From a virus, in the IMG/VR virus record IMGVR_UViG_3300022888_000583: 64,000 nucleotides of DNA, one strand, 5' to 3'. Under the pieces are notes generated by a model. The model ran no database searches and was not told the DNA's origin. It saw nothing but the letters and a program-made list of their open reading frames with translations. Below are positions 20,283 through 33,774 of the stretch, in pieces. Position 1 is the stretch's first letter. Each line of letters starts with the position of its first letter. Made by a program: the position numbers and the translations under genes.

Positions 20283-20300
20283 TTTCTGTCTCCTTTTGTG

Positions 20301-21398: not shown

Positions 21399-21494
21399 TA
21401 TAACCTCTTATTTTTTTGAGCGGAATGTCGGTAACGATCCGACGTCTTCACGTTGGCAACGTGATATAATGCCATTATACTAATCCCGCAATTT

Positions 21495-21845: not shown

Positions 21846-21846
21846 T

Positions 21847-22068
21847 TTAAATATCCGTTATTGTTCTGTGATTTTTATAGTTGTTCTGGAATTCCAGTAA
21901 ATATTCTTCATTTACCGAATTCTCTCCAACCTTTTCAACTATCCAACCCTCTTCCCAATTACCATTGAGTTTCAATTTGATTGGTTTATTCTTTTTTGCA
22001 AATTTCCAAGGTATCCATGATACTTCTTTAATATTGCCTTTTGCTAGTGTACATTGTTTAAATAACAT
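21847..22068 (-). CDS. hypothetical protein (73 aa)
   Basis: ORF. Confidence 0.35.
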   Translation of the reverse strand: MLFKQCTLAKGNIKEVSWIPWKFAKKNKPIKLKLNGNWEEGWIVEKVGENSVNEEYLLEFQNNYKNHRTITDI

Positions 22069-22071
22069 AAT

Positions 22072-22638
22072 TTAGTCCCATAATGCATAAAAATTGTCTT
22101 TGAATAAATCAAAGGCCTTATCATGCTTTTCTTTACTAATAATTTCACAAGTATTTTTATCGCTATAATGTTTTTTCATGTGATCTGGCAATTTTGCATA
22201 ATCCGTATCGAATATTGCAAATCCATTTACCATTTTTTCCGCCTCTTCAAAACCAGCAATCATTTCATCCAATGTATCTAACCAAGCTTGAAATCCATCA
22301 TCCCGTTCTTTTTTTGTAGCGTCCGCTCCAACAAATGTTGAAGGTGCCCCATGTGTATCTTTTCTTAATTCTTTAAGGGGAGGAAGTATCACTTTAATAA
22401 AATGATAATCCAAGCTCCAAGATGCCGTATCGTCATAACCTCTAATTGCTCTCTGCAATGGACGTTTGATATACGTTCTGTATGGTGCATTATTGAAAAA
22501 TCTATATACTGGCCAATATGTGTGATCAGTAATAGCATCCCAAATTTTGACAATCACTTTCCTGTCCGCCTTTTCTTGTTTCCAGCGAGCTTCCATTTCT
22601 TCAAATGTTTCAGCTTTATTTAATTTTCTTTTGGTCAT
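22072..22638 (-). CDS. hypothetical protein (188 aa)
   Basis: ORF. Confidence 0.45.
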   Translation of the reverse strand: MTKRKLNKAETFEEMEARWKQEKADRKVIVKIWDAITDHTYWPVYRFFNNAPYRTYIKRPLQRAIRGYDDTASWSLDYHFIKVILPPLKELRKDTHGAPSTFVGADATKKERDDGFQAWLDTLDEMIAGFEEAEKMVNGFAIFDTDYAKLPDHMKKHYSDKNTCEIISKEKHDKAFDLFKDNFYALWD

Positions 22639-22655
22639 AATTTTATCCTTTTTAG

Positions 22656-22727
22656 AGCTCTTAAACGGTTACGATCCGATGCTTTCAGATTACGAAACTG
22701 ATGTACTACCGATTATACTATAAGAGC
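22656..22727 (-). tRNA. tRNA-Thr(CGT)
   Basis: Acceptor GCTCTTA/TAAGAGC; anticodon loop TTCGTAA; T-loop ATCGTAA. Confidence 0.55.
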
Positions 22728-22734
22728 ATTTGTG

Positions 22735-22807
22735 TCCTGCCGTGTGGAATCGAACCACAGTCACACCCATACCAAAGGTGTATTCTAACCTTCTAAACTA
22801 CAGCAGG
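22735..22807 (-). tRNA. tRNA-Thr(GGT)
   Basis: Acceptor CCTGCTG/CGGCAGG; anticodon loop TTGGTAT; T-arm TGTGGTTCGATTCCACA. Confidence 0.65.
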
Positions 22808-22810
22808 TTT

Positions 22811-23074
22811 TTACTTACCAACTTTCATATCAAAATTGGCGATTAAATTTTTCACTTTTAGAGGTTCCTCATGCATACCATCTAGAATATAAAATTTATT
22901 CAAAGTAGCTTTCTCGCCCATCATTTTTTGAAGCTTCACAGCTATTTCAAATAGTGTCTCATCATCGACTTCAAAATCAGCATTTATATCTACACAATAT
23001 GTAAACAGAAGTGCTTCAATTATTGCATTCATTTCAACCTTATTTAACTTGTCCACAGTAACCTCCATTACCAA
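22811..23074 (-). CDS. hypothetical protein (87 aa)
   Basis: ORF. Confidence 0.4.
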   Translation of the reverse strand: MVMEVTVDKLNKVEMNAIIEALLFTYCVDINADFEVDDETLFEIAVKLQKMMGEKATLNKFYILDGMHEEPLKVKNLIANFDMKVGK

Positions 23075-23607
23075 ATAATTCGTTTAACATATAAAGCATC
23101 CAAATTGTCTGTAAGCCATACCCCATTTTCAGCTAAATAAAACGGGTGACCATCATTGTGCAATTTTAATGCGTCGATAACCAATATGGCCGGATCAGAA
23201 CCTCTTCGTTTCCCAACCACTTCAGCGGTATTTTCATCCGCTGATAAATGTACATATTGTCTATTACCTTTATTCAATCCATTTTTCATAATCGAATCGA
23301 TATTTTTAGGCGGTGTCCCATGATACAATATTTCCGGTGGAGCAATTGCTTGCAGTTTCAAATCTACTTCGATTGAATGACCTTGCATCGCTCTAACCTT
23401 TTCCCCAGTGATATCAAATGCGTATCTGATTTTTGGACCAGTACTCACTATTTCTTCTAACATTTCCATAGTAAATTTGCCAGTATCTAACAAATCTGAT
23501 ACATTGGCATATCCTTCAGCATCCAATGTAATATCGAATTGTTCTGGCTTGTGTCTCAATATGAGAGCTAGCAATTTACTTTTTTTAGTTAGATTAATTC
23601 CACTCAC
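23068..23607 (-). CDS. kptA: RNA 2'-phosphotransferase (Tpt1/KptA family)
   Basis: LRHKPEQFDITLDAEGYANVSDLL...MQGHS...LYHGT...YVHLS are KptA hallmarks; 179 aa. Confidence 0.65.
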   Translation of the reverse strand: MSGINLTKKSKLLALILRHKPEQFDITLDAEGYANVSDLLDTGKFTMEMLEEIVSTGPKIRYAFDITGEKVRAMQGHSIEVDLKLQAIAPPEILYHGTPPKNIDSIMKNGLNKGNRQYVHLSADENTAEVVGKRRGSDPAILVIDALKLHNDGHPFYLAENGVWLTDNLDALYVKRIIW

Positions 23608-23791
23608 GTAATTTTACTCCACATCTTGGGCAGTTTTTATTCCACACCGCTCTGGTTTCCATAAAGCTAGGTGATACCATTGTATATTCCTTGTGTCCAA
23701 ATATACGGCACCATAATTTTTTAAGCATTATTCTCTTTGTGCTCCTGCCTTTGGACTTCTTTTTTCTCATCATCTTCACGCTCTTTGGCAA
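23594..23791 (-). CDS. small zinc-ribbon protein (65 aa)
   Basis: CxxC pairs. Confidence 0.3.
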   Translation of the reverse strand: MPKSVKMMRKKKSKGRSTKRIMLKKLWCRIFGHKEYTMVSPSFMETRAVWNKNCPRCGVKLREWN

Positions 23792-23954
23792 TCCGAGTGT
23801 ATTCCTTCATTGTGAATCTGGCAACCCAATTGCCATCTTGATTCTTTTCTTGATGAACGGTAACATCATCTCTAATAATTTCCCTATACCGTTGACCTTC
23901 ACTTATAACTTTAACTTCGCCCATAACTTTTCCTTATAATTTAATTTTGATTTG

Positions 23955-24029
23955 TACGAGTGGCAGGATTTGAACCGACGCTTGCCCAGGATGTCGACCT
24001 GGAGCTCTACCAGACTGAGCTACACCCGC
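23955..24029 (-). tRNA. tRNA-Val(GAC) as read (C33 in the loop is unusual)
   Basis: Acceptor GCGGGTG/CACTCGT; D-arm GCTCAGTCTGGTAGAGC; anticodon loop TCGACAT. Confidence 0.5.
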
Positions 24030-24034
24030 ATTTT

Positions 24035-24262
24035 TTACTCTTGTCCTATTGGACCTTCATATAAAATTTTACTGTCACCAGACCCACGCCAAGTAGTCTT
24101 TTCAACTCTGACCATATCGGTGTCAGTTTCCTTGTCATAGTAAGCGTAACATCTGATTGCTCCGCTCCATGATGCTGTATATGTTTCTATACCTGAATTC
24201 TTAGAACCACCACGACTGGTTTGTCCTCTATTACCTTGTACTGTGCCATAAAATTGTGACAT
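24035..24262 (-). CDS. hypothetical protein (75 aa; GGAGG Shine-Dalgarno; the track ORF over-extends across tRNAs)
   Basis: Internal ATG with a strong Shine-Dalgarno; the upstream part of ORF 24035..24400 overlaps two tRNAs. Confidence 0.4.
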   Translation of the reverse strand: MSQFYGTVQGNRGQTSRGGSKNSGIETYTASWSGAIRCYAYYDKETDTDMVRVEKTTWRGSGDSKILYEGPIGQE

Positions 24263-24282
24263 ATAACCTCCATTTTGTTTAG

Positions 24283-24354
24283 CTGATTCATAGGGATTCG
24301 AACCCCAACCTGACAGGCTCAGAACCTGCGATGCTACCGTTACACCATGAATCA
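24283..24354 (-). tRNA. tRNA-Gln(CTG)
   Basis: Anticodon loop TTCTGAG; T-arm TGGGGTTCGAATCCCTA. Confidence 0.6.
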
Positions 24355-24361
24355 ATTTTTG

Positions 24362-24433
24362 CAGCGGCACCCAGAATCGAACTGGAATCACCGGGTTCAA
24401 AGCCCAGTATAATCAACCGTTATACTATACCGC
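24362..24433 (-). tRNA. tRNA-Gln(TTG)
   Basis: Anticodon loop CTTTGAA; T-loop TTCGATT. Confidence 0.55.
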
Positions 24434-24455
24434 TATTCTTATAATAAGTATCGGG

Positions 24456-24800
24456 TTATTCACCCAAAAGTTGTTCTTTTTTTTCAATGTACTCAAACAG
24501 TTCGGTATAATTGTCATCATAATTATATGGACACGCTTCAATAAATTCCAATGGTTTTGCAGTACCATATCGATCATTTTCATCCCAGTGAATTTCACCG
24601 TCTAAAAATCTATCACCAAATTTATATCGTATTCCATAGAACTGTGTTTTAAATCTACCGTCACCTTTGATACAAACACCGTAACCAAAGTTACGACCGT
24701 GAATCTTATAAAATCCACCGTGGACACATTCTTCTATTGTTATCCACTCGTTAATATGTTCTGCTCTCATTTTTCTTATCCTTTTAATTTGTAGGCCCAC
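24456..24800 (-). CDS. hypothetical protein (114 aa)
   Basis: ORF. Confidence 0.45.
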   Translation of the reverse strand: MGLQIKRIRKMRAEHINEWITIEECVHGGFYKIHGRNFGYGVCIKGDGRFKTQFYGIRYKFGDRFLDGEIHWDENDRYGTAKPLEFIEACPYNYDDNYTELFEYIEKKEQLLGE

Positions 24801-24931
24801 AGGGTAATGATCCCAGTTCTACGGTTTAAAAGACCGTTGCTTCACCATTAAAGCTTTAGGCCCAAATTGATTGGTAGAGCTACCCAATCGGCTTTGATAC
24901 AATCTGGGGCTCTATCTCCCATGATCTCCAC

Positions 24932-25135
24932 CTAATTTCTATCTTTACATTGATACTTGCGGTATTCCTTCCAGCTTCTTTTCCGGTGGAATTTATTATA
25001 TGCATTACAGCCCCGATGTGGGTGACATAATGTACAATATCCTTCATCCATTGCTACTTTAAGTCGGTGGATTTTATTGAATAGTGGACTGTTATCAGTC
25101 CAATCATATTCATAATACGTTATTGATTTCATCAT
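24932..25135 (-). CDS. Cys/His-rich small protein (67 aa)
   Basis: C-x2-C and H-x-x-x-C pattern. Confidence 0.4.
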   Translation of the reverse strand: MMKSITYYEYDWTDNSPLFNKIHRLKVAMDEGYCTLCHPHRGCNAYNKFHRKRSWKEYRKYQCKDRN

Positions 25136-25196
25136 AGTTCTCCTTGTTAGGTTACTATGATGCTGTTCCTTTTTTCATATCAATTCCCTTTTGTCA

Positions 25197-25246
25197 ATAC
25201 CTGAAGATACAAGATTATTCTCACAAAGTCAAGCGTTATTTTAATT
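25197..25246 (-). promoter_or_regulatory. copy 5 of the promoter/leader motif
   Basis: ATACCTGAAGATACAAGATTATTCTCACAAAGTCAAGCGTTATTTTAA. Confidence 0.55.
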
Positions 25247-25512
25247 TAATTTCCTGTAAGCGGGGTTCTGTCCTTTAAACTTGCCATTGACCTATTTGCA
25301 TCAACCTTGCTATTATAGAATTGCTCACCTTCTAAGCTATTTTGAATTACATCCTCACCAGTACGAACGACTATTTCGTGTCTTTCAGGGTTTCTGGTTT
25401 GGCATGATTACTACAAACCCTTTTTCTTTACTCATGCCCTAACAGCTTTAACATACAGTCTCCTGAGTTAAGCAACGATGACCCGACTTTCCTCTCCGTA
25501 GAGCGACAAGTC
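25245..25512 (-). ncRNA. rnpB: candidate minimal RNase P RNA (~270 nt)
   Basis: Minus strand carries GGAGAGGAAAGTCGGGTC (P4 5' strand, compare GAGGAAAGTCCGGGCTCC) and GGACAGAACCCCGCTTACAGG (compare ACAGAACCCGGCTTATCGG) with a compensating single-nt deletion on both P4 strands. The 5' TTTTAATTTCTG and 3' CAGGAAATTAAA can form P1. The region is ORF-free. Confidence 0.45.
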
Positions 25513-25527
25513 AGAAATTAAAATGTG

Positions 25528-25610
25528 AGGAAGGTAGAAGAATCGAACTCCTGCCCGTAAGGACACCCAAGGGTTCAAACCTTGTTGCCGGCCATTCAGC
25601 GGTACCTTCC
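25528..25610 (-). tRNA. tRNA-Ser(TGA), type II
   Basis: Acceptor GGAAGGT/ACCTTCC; anticodon loop TTTGAAC (anticodon UGA reads UCA); long variable arm. Confidence 0.6.
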
Positions 25611-26041: not shown

Positions 26042-26164
26042 AATTTTATCCCCTTCTTTCCAATTGTCATGTCGTCTGTTGCAACATGTACTTAGAACAT
26101 GTCTTAATTTTGACGATATTTAGACACGTTATTCGCTCATGTCTATATCTTAGACATGTTATTG

Positions 26165-26253
26165 TACTCCCAGCTGGACTTGAACCAACATCTCGACTTT
26201 ATCAGAATCTGACCTGTTTATAAGACAGGGGCTTTACATTAAGCTATGGGAGC
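26165..26253 (-). tRNA. type II tRNA (23-nt variable region); anticodon loop CTTATAA reads UAU; identity unclear
   Basis: Acceptor GCTCCCA/TGGGAGT; T-arm GTTGGTTCAAGTCCAGC; 89 nt. Confidence 0.4.
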
Positions 26254-26258
26254 ATGTG

Positions 26259-26333
26259 TACTCTCGGCAGGACTCGAACCTGCAACCTTTTGGGTCGAAA
26301 CCAAGAACTCTATTCCAGTTGAGCTACGAGAGC
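26259..26333 (-). tRNA. tRNA-Arg(TCG)
   Basis: Anticodon loop TTTCGAC; T-arm GCAGGTTCGAGTCCTGC. Confidence 0.6.
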
Positions 26334-26338
26334 ATGTG

Positions 26339-26409
26339 TACTGGATGGGGGAATTGAACCCGCGCCTTCTCCATGTAAAAGAGAAATTCTACCATTAAAC
26401 TAATCCAGC
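26339..26409 (-). tRNA. tRNA-Val(TAC)
   Basis: Anticodon loop TTTACAT; T-loop TTCAATT. Confidence 0.5.
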
Positions 26410-26415
26410 GTGTTG

Positions 26416-26487
26416 TGCTCCAGAGCAGACTTGAACTGCCATTCTTGGTATATCAGACCAAAGTTCTACCGTTGAACTACTGGAGAA
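26416..26487 (-). tRNA. tRNA-Ile(GAT)
   Basis: Anticodon loop CTGATAT; T-arm GGCAGTTCAAGTCTGCT. Confidence 0.55.
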
Positions 26488-26493
26488 TGTATG

Positions 26494-26567
26494 TACCTCG
26501 AGTTGGAATTGAACCAACGACCTTTGGTTTATCAGACCAACGCTCTAACCAACTGAGCTACCGAGAT
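26494..26567 (-). tRNA. tRNA-Ile(GAT), second copy with a different body
   Basis: D-arm GCTCAGTTGGTTAGAGC; anticodon loop CTGATAA. Confidence 0.55.
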
Positions 26568-26657
26568 AGGTGCGGACTCATGCGGTGTTTTGGGGGAAAC
26601 TTTGCACAAGCCCTAAAAATTGATGTAAGTTGTGTAGTGATAACGAGATACATCTAA

Positions 26658-26739
26658 TGTCGCAGTGGGGAGACTTGAACTCCCGAGTTGCCGAATATGA
26701 GCCGACACTTACACGCCTGTCTCACTGCGAAAATTGTGA
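26658..26739 (-). ncRNA. tRNA-like element (good T-arm and acceptor, no canonical anticodon or D arms)
   Basis: T-arm GGGAGTTCAAGTCTCCC and acceptor CGCAGTG/CACTGCG; ~70 nt. Confidence 0.25.
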
Positions 26740-26876
26740 CTGGAATTTCGTTTGTAACCGAAGTGCACTTCATCATTACAATTGGCCGTTTCTCCCGATT
26801 CATTGTACGGCATTGATTCTAGGGTTATTCCGATTAAATGATAATTGTACCTATACCATTTAAAGTTGTCACATAG

Positions 26877-26949
26877 CGGCCTAAGCCAGATTCGAACTAG
26901 CAACGCGAGGTACTTCACACCTCCGCTCTACCATTGGAGCTATTAGGCC
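26877..26949 (-). tRNA. tRNA-Phe(GAA)
   Basis: Acceptor GGCCTAA/TTAGGCC; anticodon loop GTGAAGT. Confidence 0.7.
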
Positions 26950-26963
26950 ATATTTAATTTTTG

Positions 26964-27045
26964 TCCCGTTAGATGGAGTCGAACCAACATTGTCCATAGA
27001 CGACGGCTTTACAGGCCGCGGGGCATCCACTTGCCCAATAACGGG
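26964..27045 (-). tRNA. tRNA-Tyr(GTA), type II
   Basis: Acceptor CCCGTTA/TAACGGG; anticodon loop CTGTAAA; long variable arm. Confidence 0.65.
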
Positions 27046-27050
27046 TTGTG

Positions 27051-27124
27051 TACTCCCACAGGGATTCGAACCCCGACTAAAAGCTTAGAAGGCTCTTGTG
27101 CTAATCCTGTTACACTATGGGAGC
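27051..27124 (-). tRNA. tRNA-Arg(TCT)
   Basis: Anticodon loop CTTCTAA; T-arm CGGGGTTCGAATCCCTG. Confidence 0.65.
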
Positions 27125-27129
27125 AGTGC

Positions 27130-27315
27130 TTAATCTTTAAACTTGAACCATATTCTTCGGCCCACTTCGATGGTTGCACCGATTGAAATCATTGCCCCAG
27201 CCATAACAAGACCGTGAGACATTAAAGACAATCCAGCGATAAAGTACAATACAAATCTCAATGCTCCGAAATATGTAAATTCCCTATCTATTGCGTATCG
27301 TTCATCTACTGTCAT
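27130..27315 (-). CDS. small hydrophobic membrane protein (61 aa)
   Basis: Track ORF; two predicted TM segments. Confidence 0.3.
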   Translation of the reverse strand: MTVDERYAIDREFTYFGALRFVLYFIAGLSLMSHGLVMAGAMISIGATIEVGRRIWFKFKD

Positions 27316-27342
27316 TTTAATAACCCTTTCTTTTTAAATTTT

Positions 27343-27415
27343 GTACACCCGGTAGGTTACGATCCTACGACCTTGAGTTTAAGAGACTCCTGCTCTGCCA
27401 ACTGAGCTACGGGTG
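27343..27415 (-). tRNA. tRNA-Lys(CTT)
   Basis: Anticodon loop CTCTTAA; unusual T-loop ATCGTAA. Confidence 0.55.
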
Positions 27416-27423
27416 CGTTTGTG

Positions 27424-27497
27424 CAGGGGTATCAGGATTCGAACCCGATCTTCATGGTTTTGGAGACCATCGTGCTACCGTTAAACACTATACCCCT
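27424..27497 (-). tRNA. tRNA-Trp(CCA)
   Basis: Acceptor AGGGGTA/TACCCCT; anticodon loop CTCCAAA. Confidence 0.65.
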
Positions 27498-27504
27498 ATG
27501 TATG

Positions 27505-27579
27505 TAGTCCCCCAGGGAGTCGAACCCTGACATTGAACGGGTCTAAGCCGCACGCCTCTACCAGTTGGGCCAGAGGACC
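27505..27579 (-). tRNA. tRNA with anticodon UAG (Leu-type) but a short variable arm (type I), A73
   Basis: Anticodon loop CTTAGAC; T-arm CAGGGTTCGACTCCCTG; 6-nt variable region. Confidence 0.45.
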
Positions 27580-27593
27580 ATTATTTGTTTTTG

Positions 27594-27666
27594 TAGCATT
27601 GGTGAGATTCGAACTCACACTGGACGATTTTTGAAACCGCTTTCTCTGCCGTTGGAATACAATGCC
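27594..27666 (-). tRNA. tRNA with anticodon CAA (Leu-type) but a short variable arm (type I), A73
   Basis: Anticodon loop TTCAAAA; T-arm GTGAGTTCGAATCTCAC. Confidence 0.45.
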
Positions 27667-27689
27667 ATTTACCTAATTTTAATTTTTGA

Positions 27690-27778
27690 TTGTGGACACA
27701 ATGGGAATCGAACCCATTACGATGTTATTCTAATTTTAAATAAGTGGAAATTGAATTTTGATCGTATCCGATATGTCC
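27690..27778 (-). ncRNA. tRNA-like with a ~40-nt AT-rich insertion (intron-bearing tRNA or degenerate)
   Basis: T-arm ATGGGTTCGATTCCCAT and acceptor GGACATA/TGTGTCC; body not canonical. Confidence 0.2.
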
Positions 27779-27779
27779 T

Positions 27780-28690
27780 TGGTAGGGTTGAGATTATACC
27801 CTTTATAGTATCCCTTTGGGAAGATTATTTATTCCTTCCTGTGTCCACGACAACCCGCTAGGGTCTATACTCTTGCGAGTAGTAAGATACCAGTCCCAGT
27901 AGGTTTAGCCTACCACTCTTATCGTTCAGGTTATCTCCACAGTTACTTATTGCTATTCAATCTTGCAGGACTGACTAAGGTTTTAACACCACTAGAACTT
28001 TCGCCATAAAACATCCGCACCTTGTGAGTTTGGTTGCCCCCGATTCATCCGAAGATGTCAGGGATTAGGGAATTTTGCTCCTAAACGCTGTCGGTCTTTT
28101 TACTTTTCAGTGAAGTGGGAATTGAACCCACACCAGTTCGCTTAGAATGCGAATTGCCTAACCAATGAGGCGATTCATGATGTATTGTGGATATTAGAAT
28201 CTGCGCCGACCAGCGATGGCGTCCTCCCTTTTGAGGAACACATACCATTCAGATTCATACCATTTCCTGGATAAGGAATTTTAGCGGTTCTTAATTATTT
28301 CCAGTTTCACCCTGCGATGAAATGTTTAGTTATACATTACAATCCAGCGTTTTACCACTCATGCAATGCTTTCCCTAGAAAATACACATAATTACTAGAA
28401 TCAAGCCCTCAGTATCCCTACCTTGAACAAGACGCTCTGGCAATCCCTATTGGATTTCTCCTCACCGGCTGTTCCACGACAACCAGATACAATCCTCTCG
28501 TTCCTGGTGGAATCTGAGGTTCATATGTTAAACCATTGTATAGATGTCTCCTATTACTAAGAGCGGCTGTTCTACGAGCCCTTTAGTCCCACTTTCGTAG
28601 GGTTATCTTCATCACCCGAAGGTGAAGCGAATCCATACATCCGAATTCTATAATTTCAAAAAACTTTGACACTCTTTCGTGTCGATGATC
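27780..28690 (-). ncRNA. ~900-nt ORF-free structured region downstream of a degenerate promoter copy; candidate large ncRNA, intron or split tRNA
   Basis: No ORF of 60 aa or more, even allowing TGA as sense. Contains a UUCG tetraloop hairpin (CACCTTCGGGTG), GNRA hairpins (CCTACGAAAGTGGG; GACACGAAAGAGTGTC) and a tRNA-like T-arm (GTGGGTTCAATTCCCAC) at 28112-28135. Confidence 0.3.
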
Positions 28691-28728
28691 AATATACAAG
28701 ATTTAAATGTAAAAGTCAAGCGTTTTTT
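28691..28728 (-). promoter_or_regulatory. copy 6 (degenerate) of the promoter motif
   Basis: AATATACAAGATTTAAATGTAAAAGTCAAGCGTTTTTTT. Confidence 0.4.
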
Positions 28729-28829
28729 TCAATTTTCTTAACTTTTTTTCTCATTCCGTATTTGTATATATATATTAGGTTATAAGCCCAAACACCATTT
28801 TTATTTCAAAAAAGTGATTTTATTTTAAG

Positions 28830-28904
28830 TACTCCCAGAAGGATTTGAACCTCCGACCCCTTGGTTCGTAGCCAAGTGCTCTATTCCAGCTGAGCTATGG
28901 GAGC
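28830..28904 (-). tRNA. tRNA-Arg(ACG)
   Basis: Anticodon loop CTACGAA; T-arm GGAGGTTCAAATCCTTC. Confidence 0.65.
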
Positions 28905-29066
28905 GTGATTTTTACTTTTTGTACTGTATATTTCCACATGGAATTTTTATCATTTTGTTCCTTAACGTACGCTTTAGCGTCCGGTTTGGATTCGTATGCC
29001 GAGTCAATTTCTGAATCTCGGTTTCCATATTTTAATTTACTTAGTACCACATATACAATTTTCATT

Positions 29067-29198
29067 TTACCAGCCTTTTTTGTGTTTAGATTTACGATTA
29101 TATTTAGTCTTATCCTTAAACACTTTCCGAGTTGGAATTGTGGTACGCATCTCAGGTCGGATGCGATTTTTGTCTTTTCTTATTAGTTTCTTTTTCAT
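29067..29198 (-). CDS. very basic small protein (43 aa, or 27 aa from an internal Met)
   Basis: MKKKLIRKDKNRIRPEMRTTIPTRKVFKDKTKYNRKSKHKKGW immediately after motif copy 7. Confidence 0.3.
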   Translation of the reverse strand: MKKKLIRKDKNRIRPEMRTTIPTRKVFKDKTKYNRKSKHKKGW

Positions 29199-29244
29199 AC
29201 CTGAAGATACAAGATTATATTGACAAAGTCAAGCGTTATTTTCG
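29195..29244 (-). promoter_or_regulatory. copy 7 of the promoter/leader motif
   Basis: Full consensus copy. Confidence 0.55.
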
Positions 29245-29264
29245 CTTATTTGAAAATAATTTTG

Positions 29265-29336
29265 ATCCCCCGACCGGCCACGATCCGATACCAAAGCTTT
29301 ACAAGAGCCTTATTCTGCCAATTAAACTACAGGGGA
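29265..29336 (-). tRNA. tRNA-Thr(TGT) (unusual T-loop ATCGTGG)
   Basis: Anticodon loop CTTGTAA. Confidence 0.5.
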
Positions 29337-29348
29337 ATTTGTATTGCT

Positions 29349-29432
29349 CATGCGGTAGGATTCGAACCTACGACGTCGCTCTCGCGAAACAGATTAACAG
29401 TCTGCCACCATCGGCCTCTCGGTCACACATGA
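29349..29432 (-). tRNA. type II tRNA; anticodon loop CTGTTAA reads GUU; identity unclear
   Basis: Acceptor TCATGTG/CGCATGA; variable-arm hairpin TCGCGAGAGCGA; T-arm GTAGGTTCGAATCCTAC. Confidence 0.4.
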
Positions 29433-29434
29433 AT

Positions 29435-30010
29435 TTATATTTTTCTATAAGATTCTATTAATCCCATTTTAAACAATTCTTTTCCAGTAAGAATTTCCAA
29501 TTCAAGTGGGAATCATTCCCACTTAGCTTCATCTTTTGGAGTCTTATAACCCTTTACTTCAACATATTGTTTTTGTTTAATCAAATAAAAATCTGGAGTA
29601 TATCTATGCCCTTTATTTTCATATTCATAATAAAAATTTTCTTTTGGTCTTCTTCATAGGATATCATTATCATCTAATCATTTGGCATAATTTAATTCTC
29701 ATTTGCCATATAATTTAACCATACCATTGCATTTACTATCATATAAATGTGTTCTACTTTTGGAAAATGAATTATGTCATGTTCCATCTTTAATTTTTTC
29801 ATTTATAGTTTTTCGTATTTTTGATTTGGTTTCATCAGATACATTTTGTCTAGGATGACCATCGGTTACTTTTTTTATCCAATTATTTCTATTTGGATTT
29901 GATTTGCAACTAACACTATGCCCTCCTAATTTTCTACCATCATCAAATTTCATTCCACAATGTTTACAAATGCTATTACCAGACCCCTTAAATCTTTTTG
30001 CATTATCCAT
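29435..30010 (-). CDS. zinc-finger / HNH-like endonuclease-type protein (~191 aa) with 4 in-frame TGA, embedded in the tRNA array
   Basis: N-terminus CKHCGMKF...GGHSVSCKSNPNRNNWIKK; the frame runs through TGA at 29777, 29699, 29678, 29654 and 29513 to TAA at 29435. Confidence 0.45.
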
Positions 30011-30089
30011 ATAAATTTCCTCTTTATTATAAGTATTAAAGAATACAAAAATATACAGACTAACGCTCTAAATAGTTTTAAAATTTTTG

Positions 30090-30161
30090 CTCCGACGACA
30101 AGATTTGAACTTGCATTACCCTGTTTAACAAACAGACGCTTTACCCATTAGCTACGTCGGA
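30090..30161 (-). tRNA. tRNA-Asn(GTT)
   Basis: Acceptor TCCGACG/CGTCGGA; anticodon loop TTGTTAA. Confidence 0.65.
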
Positions 30162-30204
30162 AATTGGATTGGGTTTTTGAATAGAACCCTTCTGTAAACT
30201 ATTA

Positions 30205-30281
30205 TGGGGTGACTAGCGGGATTCGAACCCGCACTATCTGGGTCACAGCCGGACGTGCTAACCATTATCACTATAGCCACC
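30205..30281 (-). tRNA. tRNA-His(GTG) with G-1 and an encoded CCA
   Basis: Extra 5' G pairs with C73; anticodon loop CTGTGAC; 3' CCA present. Confidence 0.65.
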
Positions 30282-30300
30282 ATGTATGTTTTTTTGTTTG

Positions 30301-30373
30301 AGTACACGGTCAGAATCGAACTGACGTCCTCCGGGTTTGCAATCCAGTGCCTATGCCTCTCAGCCACGTGTAC
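30301..30373 (-). tRNA. tRNA-Cys(GCA)
   Basis: Acceptor GTACACG/CGTGTAC; anticodon loop TTGCAAA. Confidence 0.5.
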
Positions 30374-30601
30374 ATTAATGGAAACCAATCTCTTTACTGA
30401 GCTACATTGCTTCTAGCTCCCCCGCCGAAACGGATCATCACTATAATGCAAAGACTGGAGTTGAACCAGTGACCACAAGTTTATCAGTCTGGTGCTCTTT
30501 TTAGGTTTCTCAATTGGATTCGAGGTAAGGAATTACACCTTTGTTTTTCTAATACAATGGTTCGTCAACCAAAGCATATACGCCTTTAACGCTCTCAAGT
30601 G

Positions 30602-30674
30602 TAGTTCCATAGGGGATCGAACCCTAATCTCGGGCTTGAGAAGCCCGTATCCTATCCGGTTAGACGATGGAACC
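30602..30674 (-). tRNA. tRNA-Glu(CTC)
   Basis: Anticodon stem CGGGC/GCCCG; loop TTCTCAA. Confidence 0.6.
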
Positions 30675-30680
30675 ATAATG

Positions 30681-30753
30681 TCGTCTATCGGGGAATCGAA
30701 CCCCGCTCTCAGCCTTGAAAGGGCTGTGACATAAACCGATAGTCCAATAGACG
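30681..30753 (-). tRNA. tRNA-Glu(TTC)
   Basis: Anticodon stem CAGCC/GGCTG; loop CTTTCAA. Confidence 0.6.
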
Positions 30754-30758
30754 CTGTG

Positions 30759-30833
30759 TAGCTCCAGAGGGGAACAATCCCTCTTCTCTGCCTTGAAAGG
30801 GCAGTATCCTGTATCATCCTAGACGATGGAGCC
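30759..30833 (-). tRNA. tRNA-Glu(TTC), second copy (T-loop ATTGTTC)
   Basis: Anticodon stem CTGCC/GGCAG; loop CTTTCAA. Confidence 0.5.
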
Positions 30834-30897
30834 AATTATAGAATTTTGTATCAAGTACGAGAATCTGCTTGTGGACAAATATCTATTAAAACCGCCG

Positions 30898-30968
30898 TGG
30901 GTCGTGAAGGAATCGAACCTCCATCCGTGGGGTTACAGTCCAGTATACTACCGTTGTACGAACGACCC
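30898..30968 (-). tRNA. tRNA, anticodon loop CTGTAAC (GUA?) with a weak anticodon stem; possible pseudo-tRNA
   Basis: Good acceptor GGGTCGT/ACGACCC and T-arm. Confidence 0.3.
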
Positions 30969-31027
30969 AAATTGTGAGAATTTTTAATTATATACCGCTC
31001 CCAGATTTTCTCTAACTGGCGGATTGT

Positions 31028-31100
31028 GGATACATGACGGCTTCGAACCCTCATCCTTCTGTTTGCAAAACAGATGCTTTCCCAATTAAGCTAATGACCC
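31028..31100 (-). tRNA. tRNA-Ala(TGC)-like with acceptor mismatches (no G3-U70); likely pseudo-tRNA
   Basis: Anticodon arm TCTGT-TTTGCAA-ACAGA. Confidence 0.3.
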
Positions 31101-31183
31101 GACTGCAAATTCTTTACAGGATAGTGCTAGACTGAAGGAACACCTTTGACCTATGATCACTTGATCTCCGGCTGTGTTACTTG

Positions 31184-31255
31184 TGGAGTTACTCGGTTAC
31201 GATCCGAGGACTTCTGGTTGCAAACCAGAGATTTTCCCGATTAAACTATAACCCC
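31184..31255 (-). tRNA. tRNA-Ala(TGC)
   Basis: Acceptor GGGGTTA/TAACTCC with G3-U70; anticodon loop TTTGCAA. Confidence 0.65.
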
Positions 31256-31261
31256 ATTGTG

Positions 31262-31333
31262 CGGAACTGATGGGTAACGATCCCACTTCCACGGCTTGAC
31301 AAGCCGTTGTCCATGCCTACTGACTCCAGTTCC
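31262..31333 (-). tRNA. tRNA-Asp(GTC)
   Basis: Anticodon stem ACGGC/GCCGT; loop TTGTCAA. Confidence 0.65.
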
Positions 31334-31557
31334 AGATATCCATTGTACTTCTGAATGTACCTTAAATTACCATTGTAATTATGATGCAGGATTGGCATCA
31401 GCGGTTTCGGTAAGTGAACCTGCTGAATATCGTATCACTTCTGTCGCAGTGACCAGACCTTGGTTAATTTCGACTCATATACCAAGAATGAACCGGAACG
31501 CTATGACCCCATATCGTCCCATAGGGAGTACGCTAGTACTATTTCAGATTTAGTGGC

Positions 31558-31625
31558 GGGGCCAGAAATCGCATCTGGAAACGTGAGCTTATGAGGCTCC
31601 GTGGCACTTAGCTCCCCGCAATGTA
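31558..31625 (-). ncRNA. small structured RNA / tRNA-like (possible CAU anticodon loop CTCATAA, reduced D-arm)
   Basis: Acceptor-like GCGGGGA...CCCCGC; T-arm-like CCAGATGCGATTTCTGG. Confidence 0.2.
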
Positions 31626-31629
31626 TATT

Positions 31630-31863
31630 TTAATATAATTGGTTTTTGTATAGTGCTCTATAACGAGTGGTGTCCCCGTCATTGATAATTGTGTATGTTC
31701 CATCGCTATCCGCTACAAGTTCCAATATCGGATCAACTTGTTCCAAGCTTTCCAATGCCGAATTATGAACTTGTTCTTCAGTATAACTTAGGAATAGGAA
31801 TGCGAAAATTACGGTAATCCATATTACCCGTGTCCAATGATTTTTTGTAATCTTAAACATCAA
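31630..31863 (-). CDS. small secreted/membrane protein (77 aa)
   Basis: Track ORF; hydrophobic N-terminus. Confidence 0.35.
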   Translation of the reverse strand: MMFKITKNHWTRVIWITVIFAFLFLSYTEEQVHNSALESLEQVDPILELVADSDGTYTIINDGDTTRYRALYKNQLY

Positions 31864-31869
31864 AAACCT

Positions 31870-32214
31870 CTAGTCGCAAAAGCATGACACTACATGGTCA
31901 ATGGTAACTGGCAGATGTAATTCTGCATCTGAATTATGGATAGCATTACTTGTGCGATATCCTTCTTCATAATATTCTTTTCTAGGAGAATACAATTCCC
32001 GTTCGATGTCAGCCTTAACTGTGGCCGAAACTTTATCCGTAGGAAACCACGCGTCCAAATCAATAATATTATATGAAGATGGATCGCTATGGCTCTGTGA
32101 AATTACCATTACTATCATTTTGTTACCTTTATTTTTTAGGAGTAAATTTATCACTAAAGATGTAATTGAAAGCCCAATCGCTTTCATATCTCCCAAGTGA
32201 TAATACAAGTACAA
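31870..32214 (-). CDS. hypothetical protein (114 aa)
   Basis: Track ORF. Confidence 0.35.
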   Translation of the reverse strand: MYLYYHLGDMKAIGLSITSLVINLLLKNKGNKMIVMVISQSHSDPSSYNIIDLDAWFPTDKVSATVKADIERELYSPRKEYYEEGYRTSNAIHNSDAELHLPVTIDHVVSCFCD

Positions 32215-32418
32215 GACCTTCGCCTATCAATAATATTCCATAAATGAAATATTTCCAATTTGTTGAAGCTTTTACATGTCGTCTAATTTTGTTACTCATT
32301 TTTTCCTTTTTAATTTTAATAGGAGCTATGAGGAAAGCATTTCACTTCCATCTGATTATTTCCGCAGTACCGAACTGTTTGATAACCCGCATTCTGTTAT
32401 ACTATCATAGCGTGTTTG

Positions 32419-32491
32419 GCGAGTACACCGGGATCGAACCGGCAACCTCCGGCGTGACAGGCCGGTGTGCTTCCACTTGCACCTCTACTCG
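32419..32491 (-). tRNA. tRNA-Asp(GTC), second copy, CCA encoded
   Basis: Anticodon stem CCGGC/GCCGG; loop CTGTCAC. Confidence 0.55.
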
Positions 32492-32708
32492 AGATAAGCT
32501 CATGTGGTTTACAAATCCACTTCTAAAACCAATGCATCAGTCTCCAAGTATAGAGCGATACTTAAAATCATTTTTTAAAAGAAGTGATTTTCAAACTTTG
32601 GTTACCTTCAGTTTCCTTGAAAACACCTTTCTTAGACCCAAGATGAATGGAAGGCCCCTAATTAACCCCTAGGAAGGCGGTGTTTACTGTCACCGCAGTG
32701 TAATTTGG

Positions 32709-32783
32709 AACGGGATATCAGATTCGAACTGATACTTTAAGATTGGAAGTCTCGCGTGCTAAGCCGTTAAACACTAATCCCGC
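32709..32783 (-). tRNA. tRNA-Gly(TCC)
   Basis: Anticodon loop CTTCCAA; T-arm ATCAGTTCGAATCTGAT. Confidence 0.6.
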
Positions 32784-32834
32784 ATTGGTCGGATTGGGAA
32801 CTTCTCCATAGTGGATAATTCCCGCTCCTGTTTG

Positions 32835-32908
32835 TACACCCGGTAGGCAACGATCCTACAACCTTGGGCTTAAAAGGCCCCTGCTCTGCCAAATTGAGCT
32901 ACGAGTGC
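32835..32908 (-). tRNA. tRNA-Lys(TTT)
   Basis: Anticodon loop CTTTTAA; T-loop ATCGTTG. Confidence 0.6.
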
Positions 32909-33136
32909 ATAAAATTTTTGGAGTAGATTTCCATTATCACCCTGCAGGAATGAAATGGTACTCCACGGTCACAAAAAGTTTGAGTGAGATTCGAACCCAC
33001 CAGCTTACTGTATATTAGTCAAATTGAAACCCTTCGAATTGTTTCAACCTGAGAATATTCAGTAGCATCTGCCCTACTGCATCCATTCCCGTTAACCACG
33101 CTTTTGTATAAATTTTTTGTCTGGGGTGCAGGAGTC

Positions 33137-33209
33137 GAACCTGCCAAAACCATGTTTCCAAAACACAGCCGCCACCCCGACTGTTACCCCAGTTATGTAG
33201 CCCCCAATT
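33137..33209 (-). tRNA. tRNA-Pro(TGG)
   Basis: Acceptor CTGGGGT/ACCCCAG; anticodon loop TTTGGAA. Confidence 0.55.
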
Positions 33210-33531
33210 AAGGGGACTACTATATGTCAAATAATCACACGAGATACCTCGTAGTAACTATTTTGTTTTTTTACTATTATACCCAACTGTCAAAAAACCG
33301 ATGTGGCTGTACAATCACTAACAGCTGTGTAACTTCCCGTCAATTGGGTGATGAGCCCAAGCTAGACTGACACAACGAAGGTCAGTCGGCGATTTACATT
33401 TTTCTCCAATCGCAAATTATATAAAAGTGCAGTGAGCTTTAGAATTCTCACATTTCCAGCTGAAAGGCCGGCGACTTACCCTTAGTCCATACACATTCTT
33501 TCAAAAATCTTAGAAACTTATTCCGTTTCTA

Positions 33532-33600
33532 TCATACCTGAAGATACAAGATTATATTGACAAAGTCAAGCGTTTTCTTTGATTATCTTCATTTATTTTT
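33532..33600 (-). promoter_or_regulatory. copy 8 of the promoter motif, with the extended upstream AAATAAATGAAGATAATCAAAGAAAACG element
   Basis: Full consensus; drives a ~300-nt non-coding leader into tRNA-Pro. Confidence 0.55.
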
Positions 33601-33630
33601 CAATAAGCCGAGAAACCTTTTCGTTTCTCA

Positions 33631-33690
33631 CATACCTGAAGATACAAGATAAAAATGACAAAGTCAAGCGTTTTCTTTGATTATCTTCAA
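33631..33690 (-). promoter_or_regulatory. copy 9 of the promoter motif (tandem with copy 8, ~100 nt apart)
   Basis: CATACCTGAAGATACAAGATAAAAATGACAAAGTCAAGCGTTTTCTTTGATTATCTTCA. Confidence 0.55.
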
Positions 33691-33699
33691 TTATTTTTG

Positions 33700-33774
33700 T
33701 ACCCGCCCCGAGGCTCGAACTCGGAACTACTGGATTTTAAGTCCAGTCCCTCTTTCCATTTGGGGTAGACGGGC
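33700..33774 (-). tRNA. tRNA with anticodon UAA (Leu-type), short variable arm (type I), A73
   Basis: Acceptor GCCCGTC/GGCGGGT; anticodon stem CTGGA/TCCAG; loop CTTAAAA; T-arm CCGAGTTCGAGCCTCGG. Confidence 0.55.

What the first reader, a model, noticed from the sequence alone, without database searches (positions are those of the whole stretch)
26165..33774. Large tRNA array without an obvious UGA-decoding tRNA
At least 34 credible tRNA genes lie in the window, about 27 of them in the 7.6-kb array, and a tRNA-Trp(CCA) is present. By manual reading none has a UCA anticodon. Loops that contain TCA (CTTTCAA, TTGTCAA, TTTGAAC) resolve to Glu-UUC, Asp-GUC and Ser-UGA with good stems. If TGA is really decoded as Trp, the decoder is either elsewhere in the genome, is one of the atypical tRNA-like elements (26658..26739, 27690..27778, 31558..31625), relies on near-cognate reading by tRNA-Trp(CCA), or belongs to the host (a code-4 host).
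Basis: partly seen in the sequence, partly recalled or inferred. Interest (0 to 1): 0.65.

Follow-up and report, generated by a model that had tools for sequence, protein, structure and literature searches.

The report
Recoded phage tRNA island lacking UGA decoder
A large block of transfer-RNA genes in an uncultured marine giant phage that reads the stop codon TGA as tryptophan in many genes has no tRNA matched to TGA, so how that codon is read stays open, as it does for most such phages.

Summary
ARAGORN finds 41 tRNAs in the window, 31 of them in 26164..33774 on the minus strand, including tRNA-Trp(CCA). Neither ARAGORN, Rfam covariance models nor my own stem-loop scan finds a UCA anticodon.

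The premise also holds. In-frame TGA sits on conserved Trp positions, and reading TGA as sense raises coding density from 0.74 to 0.90 in the adjacent structural module. TGA is concentrated in structural genes and homing endonucleases and is nearly absent from the metabolic gene block.

The third is a tRNA-like tail of a GOLLD RNA.

I walked about 128 kb of the same phage, from about -25 kb to +103 kb in window coordinates. There are no tRNAs outside the island. The islands of two sister phages also lack UCA.

A code-4 host is unlikely, because metabolic genes use only TGG and the GroEL is closest to Marinimicrobia and other FCB-group bacteria.

Two explanations stay nearly level:
- Near-cognate reading by tRNA-Trp(CCA), which has a 5-bp anticodon stem and A24.
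- A suppressor tRNA in the unseen 40-70 kb of the genome.

Missing suppressors are already reported for about 65% of code-4 phages, so this is a new member of a known kind and of moderate interest.

The parts
26164..33774 (-). Main tRNA island. 31 ARAGORN tRNAs: Ile-UAU, Arg-UCG, Val-UAC, Ile-GAU x2, Phe, Tyr x2, Arg-UCU x2, Lys-CUU, Trp-CCA, Leu-UAG/CAA/UAA, Arg-ACG, Thr-UGU, Asn x2, His, Cys, Glu-CUC, Glu-UUC x2, Ala x2, Asp x2, Gly-UCC, Lys-UUU, Pro. No UCA anticodon.
16585..25610 (-). Ten further tRNAs scattered between protein genes: Ser-GCU, Arg-CCU, Gly-GCC, Thr-CGU, Thr-GGU, Val-GAC, Gln-CUG, Gln-UUG, Lys-UUU, Ser-UGA.
27423..27497 (-). tRNA-Trp(CCA), the only Trp tRNA. A1-U72 and G73. 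Anticodon stem of 5 Watson-Crick pairs (A27-U43 at the top). A9 and U11-A24.
   Evidence: Rfam 41.6 bits.
26659..26730 (-). A decayed tRNA(CAU) with a reduced D arm and an 8-bp acceptor stem. Orthologue of canonical tRNA(CAU) genes in the sister phages.
31555..31625 (-). Initiator-like tRNA(CAU): GCGGGG acceptor, CUCAUAA loop, degenerate D and T arms.
27692..27778 (-). tRNA-like element with an acceptor stem and T arm but no proper anticodon arm, directly 3' of the GOLLD RNA.
27785..28257 (-). GOLLD RNA with an embedded tRNA-like element at 28107..28180, which ARAGORN calls 'Arg-UCU'.
   Evidence: 190 bits, gathering score 150. Conserved in the sister phages.
29435..30010 (-). Endonuclease gene inside the island, with 5 in-frame TGA and 2 TGG.
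15275..15970 (-). GIY-YIG homing endonuclease. One of its in-frame TGA codons aligns with the conserved Trp of I-TevI in the motif 'FWIK..GYN'.
575..1687 (-). Gene of the structural module (370 aa) with 3 in-frame TGA and no TGG. Two of the three TGA columns are consensus Trp in homologues.
4598..5071 (-). HNH endonuclease gene with 4 in-frame TGA and no TGG.
25241..25522 (-). Reduced element resembling bacterial RNase P RNA, beside tRNA-Ser(UGA). Possibly processes the island transcripts.
4236..4594 (-). tmRNA with tag GTNYAYPVAA.
58424..58813 (+). 129-aa release-factor domain protein carrying only the GGQ motif region, with no codon-reading domain.

Best explanation
The interval is a real tRNA island of an uncultured marine phage whose genome is at least about 165 kb. 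The phage translates TGA as tryptophan in a subset of genes: baseplate and tail genes, a weak spanin-like candidate, and homing endonucleases. Its metabolic genes stay compatible with the standard code, which points to a standard-code host. The island does lack a UCA tRNA.

The mechanism I think slightly most likely is that UGA is read without a cognate suppressor. On this view tRNA-Trp(CCA) reads it through a C34:A mismatch at the third codon position. The tRNA could be the phage's own copy, which all three sister phages keep. This would probably work only once release factor 2 is out-competed or disabled during infection.

Shown: the island, the absence of UCA, the TGA-to-Trp recoding and its uneven distribution across genes. 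Inferred: who reads UGA, and any action on RF2.
For: Recoding:
- The TGA of the GIY-YIG gene aligns with the conserved Trp of I-TevI.
- In alignment A1, 2 of the 3 TGA columns of the 575..1687 protein are Trp in 12 of 19 homologues.
- Code 4 raises coding density from 0.74 to 0.90 (L001) and from 0.84 to 0.92 (L009). It fuses fragments into ORFs of 661, 694 and 1073 aa.
- Only 4 of 60 ORFs of at least 100 aa end in TGA.

No UCA tRNA:
- None in the window.
- None in about 128 kb of the same phage, by ARAGORN and by Rfam.
- None in the syntenic islands of two sister phages, with at least 46 tRNAs and 41 tRNAs. Relative B is itself TGA-recoded (L011).

Candidate decoder:
- The window copy has U11-A24, the state created by the G24A Hirsh suppressor mutation (the Hirsh mutation is from my own knowledge and from PMC13092985).
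- In the sister phages the top anticodon-stem pair 27:43 is a wobble pair: U.G in relative C and G.U in relative B.

Precedent:
- Ca. Zinderia and bacterium XS4 use code 4 with only a tRNA-Trp(CCA). The 4-bp-stem form reads UGA in E. coli (PMC13092985; PMC13462651).
- Only 35% of code-4 phages have a detectable TGA suppressor tRNA (Borges et al. preprint).
Against: - The window's tRNA-Trp has a canonical 5-bp Watson-Crick anticodon stem, so it is not the Blastocrithidia-like form whose UGA reading was demonstrated.
- A24 appears common among bacterial tRNA-Trp genes, so it is not a specific sign. PMC13092985 set aside 2,414 of 3,438 4-bp-stem tRNA-Trp(CCA) genes for carrying A9C and/or G24A.
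- tRNA-Trp is not unusually divergent among the island's tRNAs. It is 0.72 and 0.89 identical to its sister-phage copies, within the spread of the others.
- Proteins with 3-5 in-frame TGA need efficient decoding. Near-cognate reading gives that only if RF2 is neutralised, and no anti-RF2 factor, RF1 or TrpRS was seen in the region examined.
- An estimated 40-70 kb of the genome is unseen.
Confidence: 0.38

Rival explanations
1. A conventional suppressor tRNA(UCA) exists but lies outside the island, in the part of the genome I could not reach. It might sit beside late or lysis genes as a separately timed 'code-change module'. Alternatively it is too atypical for ARAGORN and Rfam to detect.
For: [quoted passage not shown]
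- The genome extends at least about 60 kb beyond what I scanned. Contigs of 78 and 72 kb start near +83 and +92 kb. Relatives have contigs of 173-176 kb.
- tRNA genes turn over quickly in this family, and some standard-code relatives carry a UCA tRNA, a tRNA-Sec.
- The capsid, portal and terminase regions have not been seen.
Against: - All 41 tRNAs, plus the two decayed CAU tRNAs, lie within 17 kb.
- About 128 kb of contiguous DNA, including the tail and baseplate module, has no other tRNA.
- The islands of two sister phages also lack it.
- A permissive custom scan found nothing in the window. Its one hit in a flank does not fold as a tRNA.
Confidence: 0.33
2. The host supplies the decoder. 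Either the host itself uses code 4, or it has a tRNA-Trp that reads UGA well, such as a 4-bp anticodon-stem CCA form or a UCA form. The phage then only exploits this.
For: - About 6.5% of standard-code bacteria have only a 4-bp-stem tRNA-Trp(CCA), and these genomes tend to use fewer UGA stops.
- The host has not been identified.
Against: - TGA is nearly absent from the metabolic and host-like genes. Outside the two homing endonucleases the 2.2-26 kb block has about 6 TGA against about 100 TGG, and GroEL, NadE, IMPDH, NAPRTase and PDF have none.
- Structural genes have about 20 TGA against 35 TGG. A code-4 host would give even usage.
- The GroEL is closest to Marinimicrobia (71%) and other FCB-group bacteria. 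No code-4 lineage is reported there.
- More distant relatives of the phage use the standard code.
Confidence: 0.12
3. The anticodon is changed after transcription. C34 of tRNA-Trp(CCA) would be edited to U, or modified so that it pairs with A, by a phage or host enzyme. The gene would read CCA while the mature tRNA reads UGA.
For: - C-to-U editing of tRNA-Trp(CCA) to UCA is how trypanosome mitochondria read UGA (PMC8677022, listed).
- From my own knowledge, lysidine on C34 of tRNA-Ile2 switches pairing from G to A in bacteria.
- The phage keeps its own tRNA-Trp(CCA).
Against: - No deaminase or TilS-like gene was seen in the regions annotated. The only PP-loop enzyme there is a bona fide NAD synthase, scoring 259 bits against a cut-off of 255, within an NAD salvage cluster.
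- Most small ORFs have no annotation, so this test is weak.
Confidence: 0.07
4. TGA is not efficiently decoded at all. The TGA-bearing genes would be throttled by rare read-through, or would be decaying. On this view TGA works as an expression brake, not a reassigned codon.
For: - Homing endonucleases, whose expression is usually kept low, carry the densest TGA: 3-5 per gene.
- Four genes look TGA-terminated with a back-up TAA or TAG 0-20 codons later.
Against: - Essential virion proteins carry 1-5 TGA each: the gp25-like wedge protein and ORFs of 661, 694 and 1073 aa. They remain otherwise intact and are conserved in hundreds of metagenome contigs.
- At a few percent read-through per codon, these proteins would not be made.
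Confidence: 0.05

Closest known systems
TGA-recoded (code 4) phages of gut microbiomes, such as the Jade and Agate clades (Borges et al., bioRxiv 10.1101/2021.08.26.457843)
   Same: - In-frame TGA at Trp positions.
- TGA rare as a stop codon, in a low-GC genome.
- Recoding concentrated in structural and lysis-type genes, with other genes standard-code compatible.
- Standard-code close relatives exist, and a standard-code host is predicted.
- No suppressor tRNA detected, as in about 65% of their code-4 genomes.
   Different: - A marine phage with a GOLLD RNA, a tmRNA and a near-complete tRNA set of 41 genes, two decayed CAU tRNAs aside. The missing UCA therefore stands out.
- No TrpRS/RF1 code-change module in the 128 kb examined.
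- Homing endonucleases are the most TGA-dense genes.
[quoted passage not shown] Zinderia insecticola and Fastidiosibacteraceae XS4. Also Blastocrithidia nonstop. (PMC13092985, PMC13462651)
   Same: UGA read as Trp, a tRNA-Trp(CCA) present, and no tRNA(UCA) found.
   Different: - The window's tRNA-Trp has five Watson-Crick pairs in the anticodon stem. The sister phages have wobble pairs at 27:43, not an open pair.
- Those organisms have lost RF2 or carry a mutant eRF1. Here the cell presumably still has RF2.
- Those genomes are complete. This one is not.
Hirsh UGA suppressor: E. coli tRNA-Trp(CCA) with the G24A mutation
   Same: The CCA anticodon is kept and A24 pairs with U11.
   Different: A24 appears to be the natural state in many bacterial tRNA-Trp genes, for example in B. 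subtilis (sequence from my memory). It is therefore not evidence of selection for UGA reading here. C9 is absent.
Phages of Mycoplasma and Spiroplasma, which simply share their host's code 4
   Same: TGA read as Trp, in an AT-rich genome.
   Different: Those phages use TGA throughout their genes. Here TGA is missing from the metabolic and host-like genes, and the host signal points to FCB-group bacteria.

Membership tests
Phage tRNA gene island | Many same-strand cloverleaf tRNA genes that pass a covariance model | tested here: met
   41 ARAGORN tRNAs, of which 38 reach the Rfam RF00005 gathering score. The island is syntenic in two sister phages.
Code-4 (TGA=Trp) recoded phage | In-frame TGA aligned to conserved Trp in homologues | tested here: met
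   I-TevI alignment. Alignment A1: Trp in 12 of 19 homologues at two of the three TGA columns.
Code-4 (TGA=Trp) recoded phage | Coding density rises when TGA is read as sense, and TGA is rare as a stop | tested here: met
   Density 0.74 to 0.90 (L001), 0.84 to 0.92 (L009) and 0.64 to 0.73 (window). Stop codons of ORFs of at least 100 aa: TAA 47, TAG 9, TGA 4.
Code-4 (TGA=Trp) recoded phage | Recoded codons concentrated in late or structural genes, with other genes standard-code compatible | tested here: met
   Structural module: about 20 TGA to 35 TGG. Metabolic block, excluding two homing endonucleases: about 6 to 100. Exceptions exist, for example the SAM-lyase gene 42803..43798 with 3 TGA.
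Code-4 (TGA=Trp) recoded phage | Phage-encoded suppressor tRNA(UCA) | tested here: not met
   None in the window or in about 128 kb of the phage. The rest of the genome is unseen. This feature is absent in about 65% of published members.
Code-4 (TGA=Trp) recoded phage | Code-change module (TrpRS, RF1) | tested here: not met
   No such Pfam hits among the genes called from -8 kb to +93 kb. The only related gene is a GGQ-only RF domain protein.
[quoted passage not shown] | Top anticodon-stem pair 27:43 unpaired, with a 7-nt loop | tested here: not met
   Window: A27-U43 and five Watson-Crick pairs. Relative C: U.G followed by G.U. Relative B: G.U.
[quoted passage not shown] | No tRNA(UCA) in a complete genome | tested here: inconclusive
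   About 128 kb of an estimated 165-200 kb was scanned.
Hirsh-type tRNA-Trp(CCA) | A24 (or C9) in the D arm | tested here: met
   U11-A24 is present and position 9 is A. This is not specific, because A24 appears common in bacteria.
Hirsh-type tRNA-Trp(CCA) | Raised UGA reading | not testable with these tools
   Needs a reporter assay.
Phage of a code-4 host | TGA used as Trp evenly across genes, including host-derived ones | tested here: not met
   GroEL, NadE, IMPDH, NAPRTase and PDF have 0 TGA.
Phage of a code-4 host | Host lineage known to use code 4 | tested here: inconclusive
   The nearest GroELs are from Marinimicrobia and FCB-group bacteria, which are not among the reported code-4 lineages. 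GroEL similarity is only a hint of the host.
tRNA-Sec | Match to Rfam RF01852 at gathering score, with a UCA anticodon | tested here: not met
   In the window there are only sub-threshold overlaps with Ser-UGA and Pro (28 and 24 bits). The feature is met in standard-code relatives L064, L065 and L070 (65.4 bits).

The most novel reading that the evidence does not exclude
A phage switches the infected cell to TGA=Trp without any cognate suppressor tRNA. It would rely on a tRNA-Trp(CCA) with an ordinary 5-bp anticodon stem, either its own over-supplied copy or one altered at C34 after transcription. An as yet unrecognised block of RF2 would also be needed. The phage's tmRNA and GGQ-only release-factor domain protein might handle the stalled ribosomes that result.
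Probability: 0.3. Interest if true: 0.7.

Novelty: new member of a known kind. Interest (0 to 1): 0.45.

Why it matters
How recoded phages impose a new codon meaning on a standard-code cell is unresolved. Most code-4 phages have no detectable suppressor tRNA.

This phage family is a clean case for asking that question:
- It carries almost a full tRNA set, so a UCA tRNA would be expected in the island if one were needed.
- It keeps a tRNA-Trp(CCA).
- It is abundant in public marine metagenomes. Its proteins are indexed in more than 100 blocks of the contig collection.

The phage tRNA-Trp genes, namely the 75-nt forms and the 83-nt remodelled form of relative B, could go straight into the E. coli UGA read-through assay already published for 4-bp-stem tRNAs (PMC13092985).

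If the complete genome turns out to hold a UCA tRNA, the case becomes an ordinary recoded phage.

Tried and rejected
Searches that found nothing useful:
- Megablast of the island against GenBank phages gave no match. A protein search found only distant relatives: a 484-kb uncultured phage and a Microcystis phage.
- ARAGORN with introns allowed, mitochondrial mode and relaxed thresholds added only the two CAU elements, the tRNA-like element and obvious false positives.
- The plus-strand 'SeC(tca)' at 29467..29552 was rejected on structure.
- A custom UCA hit at L163:11633, about +65.2 kb, does not fold as a tRNA (z-score -0.43) and lies inside an ORF.
- An IMG/VR pattern search for this tRNA-Trp body with CCA or UCA found only relative B, with CCA.

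Walking the genome:
- Two IMG/VR searches with right-arm proteins found nothing.
- Contig ends cluster near -24 to -26 kb and +71 to +73 kb, which suggested a genome of about 100 kb. The two ends do not overlap, and other contigs run on to about +160 kb.

Ideas tested without support:
- The class II UCA tRNA of relatives L064, L065 and L070 might have had an orthologue in the window. It is a tRNA-Sec and has none.
- tRNA-Trp might have evolved unusually fast. It has not.
- The base after TGA might be biased. There is only a mild depletion of G, 0.19 against 0.33 after TGG (n=111), which is not decisive.
- The Leu-CAA loop UUCAAAA could be shifted by one base to give UCA. The shifted stem does not pair, by my own reading of the sequence.

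Full report
**What is there**

The window is AT-rich (about 37% GC). Genes lie on the minus strand up to about 52 kb and on the plus strand after that.

ARAGORN finds a tmRNA (4238..4594) and 41 tRNAs, all on the minus strand. Ten more are scattered over 16585..25610. Rfam confirms 38 of the tRNAs at gathering score. It also finds a GOLLD RNA at 27785..28257 (190 bits), which contains one of the ARAGORN 'tRNAs' at 28107..28180.

The set covers 19 amino acids. Met is missing from the standard calls. The tRNA-Trp(CCA) is real (27423..27497).

**No UCA anticodon**

None of the following finds a UCA anticodon:
- ARAGORN at default settings, with code 4, or with introns allowed.
- Rfam at gathering score, and at E<=0.5 over the whole window.
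- My own scan for NU-UCA-RN loops inside a cloverleaf. As a control, the same scan recovers 33 of the 41 ARAGORN tRNAs when given their anticodons, and it recovers a relative's tRNA-Sec.

ARAGORN at a relaxed threshold gives one plus-strand 'SeC(tca)' at 29467..29552. It has a mismatched acceptor stem, a non-canonical T loop and an unstructured variable region. It is also antisense to an ORF. I treat it as a false positive.

**The three atypical elements**

- Element 1 (26659..26730) folds with an 8-bp acceptor stem, a 3-bp D stem, a 6-bp anticodon stem and a CUCAUAU loop, so its anticodon is CAU. It aligns with canonical tRNA(CAU) genes at the same place in two sister phages. It shares their acceptor stem and anticodon arm and differs by a deletion in the D arm.
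- Element 3 (31555..31625) is initiator-like: GCGGGG...CCCCGC with a CUCAUAA loop, and weak D and T arms.
- Element 2 (27692..27778) has a good acceptor stem and T arm but no credible anticodon arm. It begins a few bases after the 3' end of GOLLD.

None of the three can be a UGA decoder.

**Is TGA really read as Trp? Yes**

- Several minus-strand ORFs are broken only by TGA.
- The GIY-YIG gene (15275..15970) reads 'REIY-TGA-IKMTDAVNIGYN'. In a PDB search this aligns with I-TevI 'RENFWIKELNSKINGYN', with the TGA on the Trp. The E-value is weak (0.077) but the alignment spans the whole domain.
- The 370-aa protein at 575..1687 has three TGA and no TGG. I searched it with X at those positions. 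In an alignment of 19 homologues, two of the three columns are Trp in 12 of 19 sequences. The third is Trp only in three sequences, including the two closest relatives.
- In the neighbouring structural module, reached through public contigs that carry window proteins, reading TGA as sense raises coding density from 0.74 to 0.90 (L001) and from 0.84 to 0.92 (L009). It joins fragments into ORFs of 661, 694 and 1073 aa.
- A gp25-like baseplate wedge protein with two TGA matches PHROG baseplate wedge families.
- Only 4 of 60 ORFs of at least 100 aa on the coding strand end in TGA. Two of these are followed by TAA or TAG within 0-20 codons. The other two are TGA-truncated fragments of longer code-4 ORFs.

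**Where the TGA codons are**

- The window has 88 code-4 genes. Eighteen contain TGA, with 44 TGA against 238 TGG overall.
- The 2.2-26 kb block holds GroEL, IMPDH, nicotinamidase, Nudix, NadE, NAPRTase, PDF, ClpP and Tpt1. It is almost free of TGA apart from an HNH and a GIY-YIG homing endonuclease.
- A third endonuclease, inside the island at 29435..30010, has five TGA.
- In the tail and baseplate genes, about 36% of Trp codons are TGA.
- The pattern is not purely late genes. A SAM-lyase gene (42803..43798) has three TGA.

**Relatives**

- Two close relatives are also recoded. Relative B shares 66-83% protein identity and spans several IMG/VR contigs. L073 is the other.
- More distant relatives (45-63% identity) use the standard code. 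Three of them (L064, L065, L070) have no TGA-terminated large ORFs and carry a bona fide tRNA-Sec, at 65.4 bits against a gathering score of 47.
- Relative B's island has GOLLD and at least 46 tRNAs. Relative C (76% Tpt1 identity) has GOLLD and 41 tRNAs in 12.8 kb. Neither has a UCA anticodon and both have tRNA-Trp(CCA).

**Search of the rest of the genome**

I used window proteins, one homologue search and the collection scans to read the same phage from about -24.9 kb (L083) to about +103 kb (L163, L177, L259, L263, L264) in window coordinates. ARAGORN finds no tRNA outside 16.5-33.8 kb. Rfam finds only the tmRNA.

The genome continues further. Contigs of 78 and 72 kb begin near +83 and +92 kb, and relatives have contigs of 173-176 kb. 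Roughly 40-70 kb is therefore unseen, and it has not yet shown the capsid, portal or terminase genes.

**Host**

The uneven use of TGA argues against a code-4 host, which would give even use. So do the TGA-free host-like genes.

The phage GroEL is closest to Candidatus Marinimicrobia (71%) and then to Chlorobi, Ignavibacteria and Bacteroidota (64-69%). Reported code-4 bacteria are in Bacillota, Pseudomonadota, Verrucomicrobiota, Actinomycetota and one Patescibacteriota family. GroEL similarity is only a hint of the host.

**The candidate decoder**

The phage tRNA-Trp(CCA) has these features:
- A1-U72 and G73.
- A CUCCAAA anticodon loop.
- A9 and U11-A24.
- A five-pair Watson-Crick anticodon stem, A27-U43 to U31-A39.

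Published features that let a CCA tRNA-Trp read UGA are an open 27:43 pair (the 4-bp stem), A9C and G24A. The window tRNA has only A24, which appears common in bacteria.

Relative C has U.G and G.U as its top two stem pairs. Relative B has G.U at 27:43, a remodelled D arm and an extra UUCG hairpin in the variable region, and it fails Rfam's tRNA threshold. This is suggestive but not specific, because tRNA-Trp is no more divergent than many other tRNAs of the island.

**Weighing the explanations**

A suppressor located elsewhere is the textbook answer. It could be placed apart for timing, as in the Jade phages. Against it, nothing was found in 128 kb or in the islands of three phages.

Reading by tRNA-Trp(CCA) has a visible candidate and recent precedents in Zinderia, XS4, Blastocrithidia and an E. 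coli assay. It lacks the defining 4-bp stem, and it needs RF2 to be neutralised, for which I found no gene.

My estimates are:
- About 0.38 for reading by tRNA-Trp(CCA).
- About 0.33 for a suppressor tRNA elsewhere.
- About 0.12 for a decoder supplied by the host.
- About 0.07 for editing or modification of C34.
- About 0.05 for TGA acting as an expression brake.

**Novelty**

TGA-recoded phages without a detectable suppressor tRNA are already described. Only 35% of code-4 phages have one. This is a new, marine, tRNA-rich member of that kind, and a convenient test case, not a new phenomenon.

Noticed in passing
window 25241..25522 (-): A 282-nt element matches bacterial type-A RNase P RNA end to end: 41.9 bits, below the gathering score of 100, local E-value 1e-11. 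It keeps P1, GAGGAAAGUC and ACAGAACCC-GCUUAC, and it lies directly 3' of tRNA-Ser(UGA). It is conserved in relative B (L172:4016-4359). One literature search found no paper on a phage-encoded RNase P RNA.
   Followed up: partly
window 27692..28257 (-): A GOLLD RNA (190 bits) carries an embedded tRNA-like element (28107..28180) and is followed at once by a second tRNA-like element (27692..27778) that has no anticodon arm. By analogy with MALAT1 and mascRNA, RNase P cleavage there could define the 3' end of GOLLD. GOLLD sits at a syntenic position within the island in relatives B and C; its tRNA-like elements were not checked there.
   Followed up: partly
window 26164..26253 (-) and 29346..29432 (-): Two tRNAs have a long variable arm (class II) but anticodons outside Leu, Ser and Tyr. 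One is UAU (90 nt, A73), conserved in both sister phages. The other is GUU (87 nt, G73), 99% identical in relative C. By contrast, all three 'Leu' tRNAs (27504..27579, 27593..27666, 33699..33774) are class I at 74-76 nt. Which amino acids these tRNAs accept is unclear.
   Followed up: partly
window 58424..58813 (+): A 129-aa protein consists only of the GGQ peptidyl-tRNA hydrolase domain of a class I release factor (GSGAGGQHRNK). Its best match is the C-terminal half of RF1, and it has no codon-reading domain. It lies next to Cpn10. Together with the tmRNA at 4236..4594, it suggests the phage invests in rescuing stalled ribosomes.
   Followed up: partly
L064:607-700, L065:607-700, L070:695-788: Standard-code relatives of this phage family (46-47% identity) encode a bona fide tRNA-Sec (Rfam RF01852, 65.4 bits) next to tRNA-Thr(UGU). 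No ORF of at least 100 aa in these loci ends in TGA.
   Followed up: partly
L171:8278-8360: The tRNA-Trp(CCA) of relative B is 83 nt long. It has a degenerate D arm and an extra hairpin with a UUCG loop in the variable region, and it fails the Rfam tRNA threshold. It keeps the acceptor stem, G73 and the CUCCAAA loop of the window's copy.
   Followed up: partly
window 21093..21398, 46995..47243, 53564..54064, 60364..60675: Four genes appear to end in TGA with a back-up TAA or TAG 0-20 codons downstream. One is a direct TGA-TAG tandem and one is an ATGA overlap with the next gene. This would fit TGA being used both as a stop and as a sense codon.
   Followed up: no
window 23068..23607, 45913..46998, 47245..48027 (-): A tRNA repair set accompanies the island: Tpt1/KptA RNA 2'-phosphotransferase, a T4 Rnl1-type RNA ligase and RlaP. 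Nearby are a Mom-like gene (45235..45912) and a SAM lyase (42803..43798).
   Followed up: no
window 5561..12133 (-): A block of host-like auxiliary genes: IMPDH/GMP reductase-like, nicotinamidase, Nudix, NAD synthase, GroEL, NAPRTase and peptide deformylase. The GroEL is closest to Marinimicrobia (71%), a possible hint of the host.
   Followed up: partly
L163:19640-19900 (about +73.2 kb in window coordinates): At least three assemblies from different samples (NODE_420 and two JGI contigs) end within a few hundred bases of this GC-rich intergenic stretch. Others end near -24 to -26 kb. No repeat was found that explains the breaks.
   Followed up: partly
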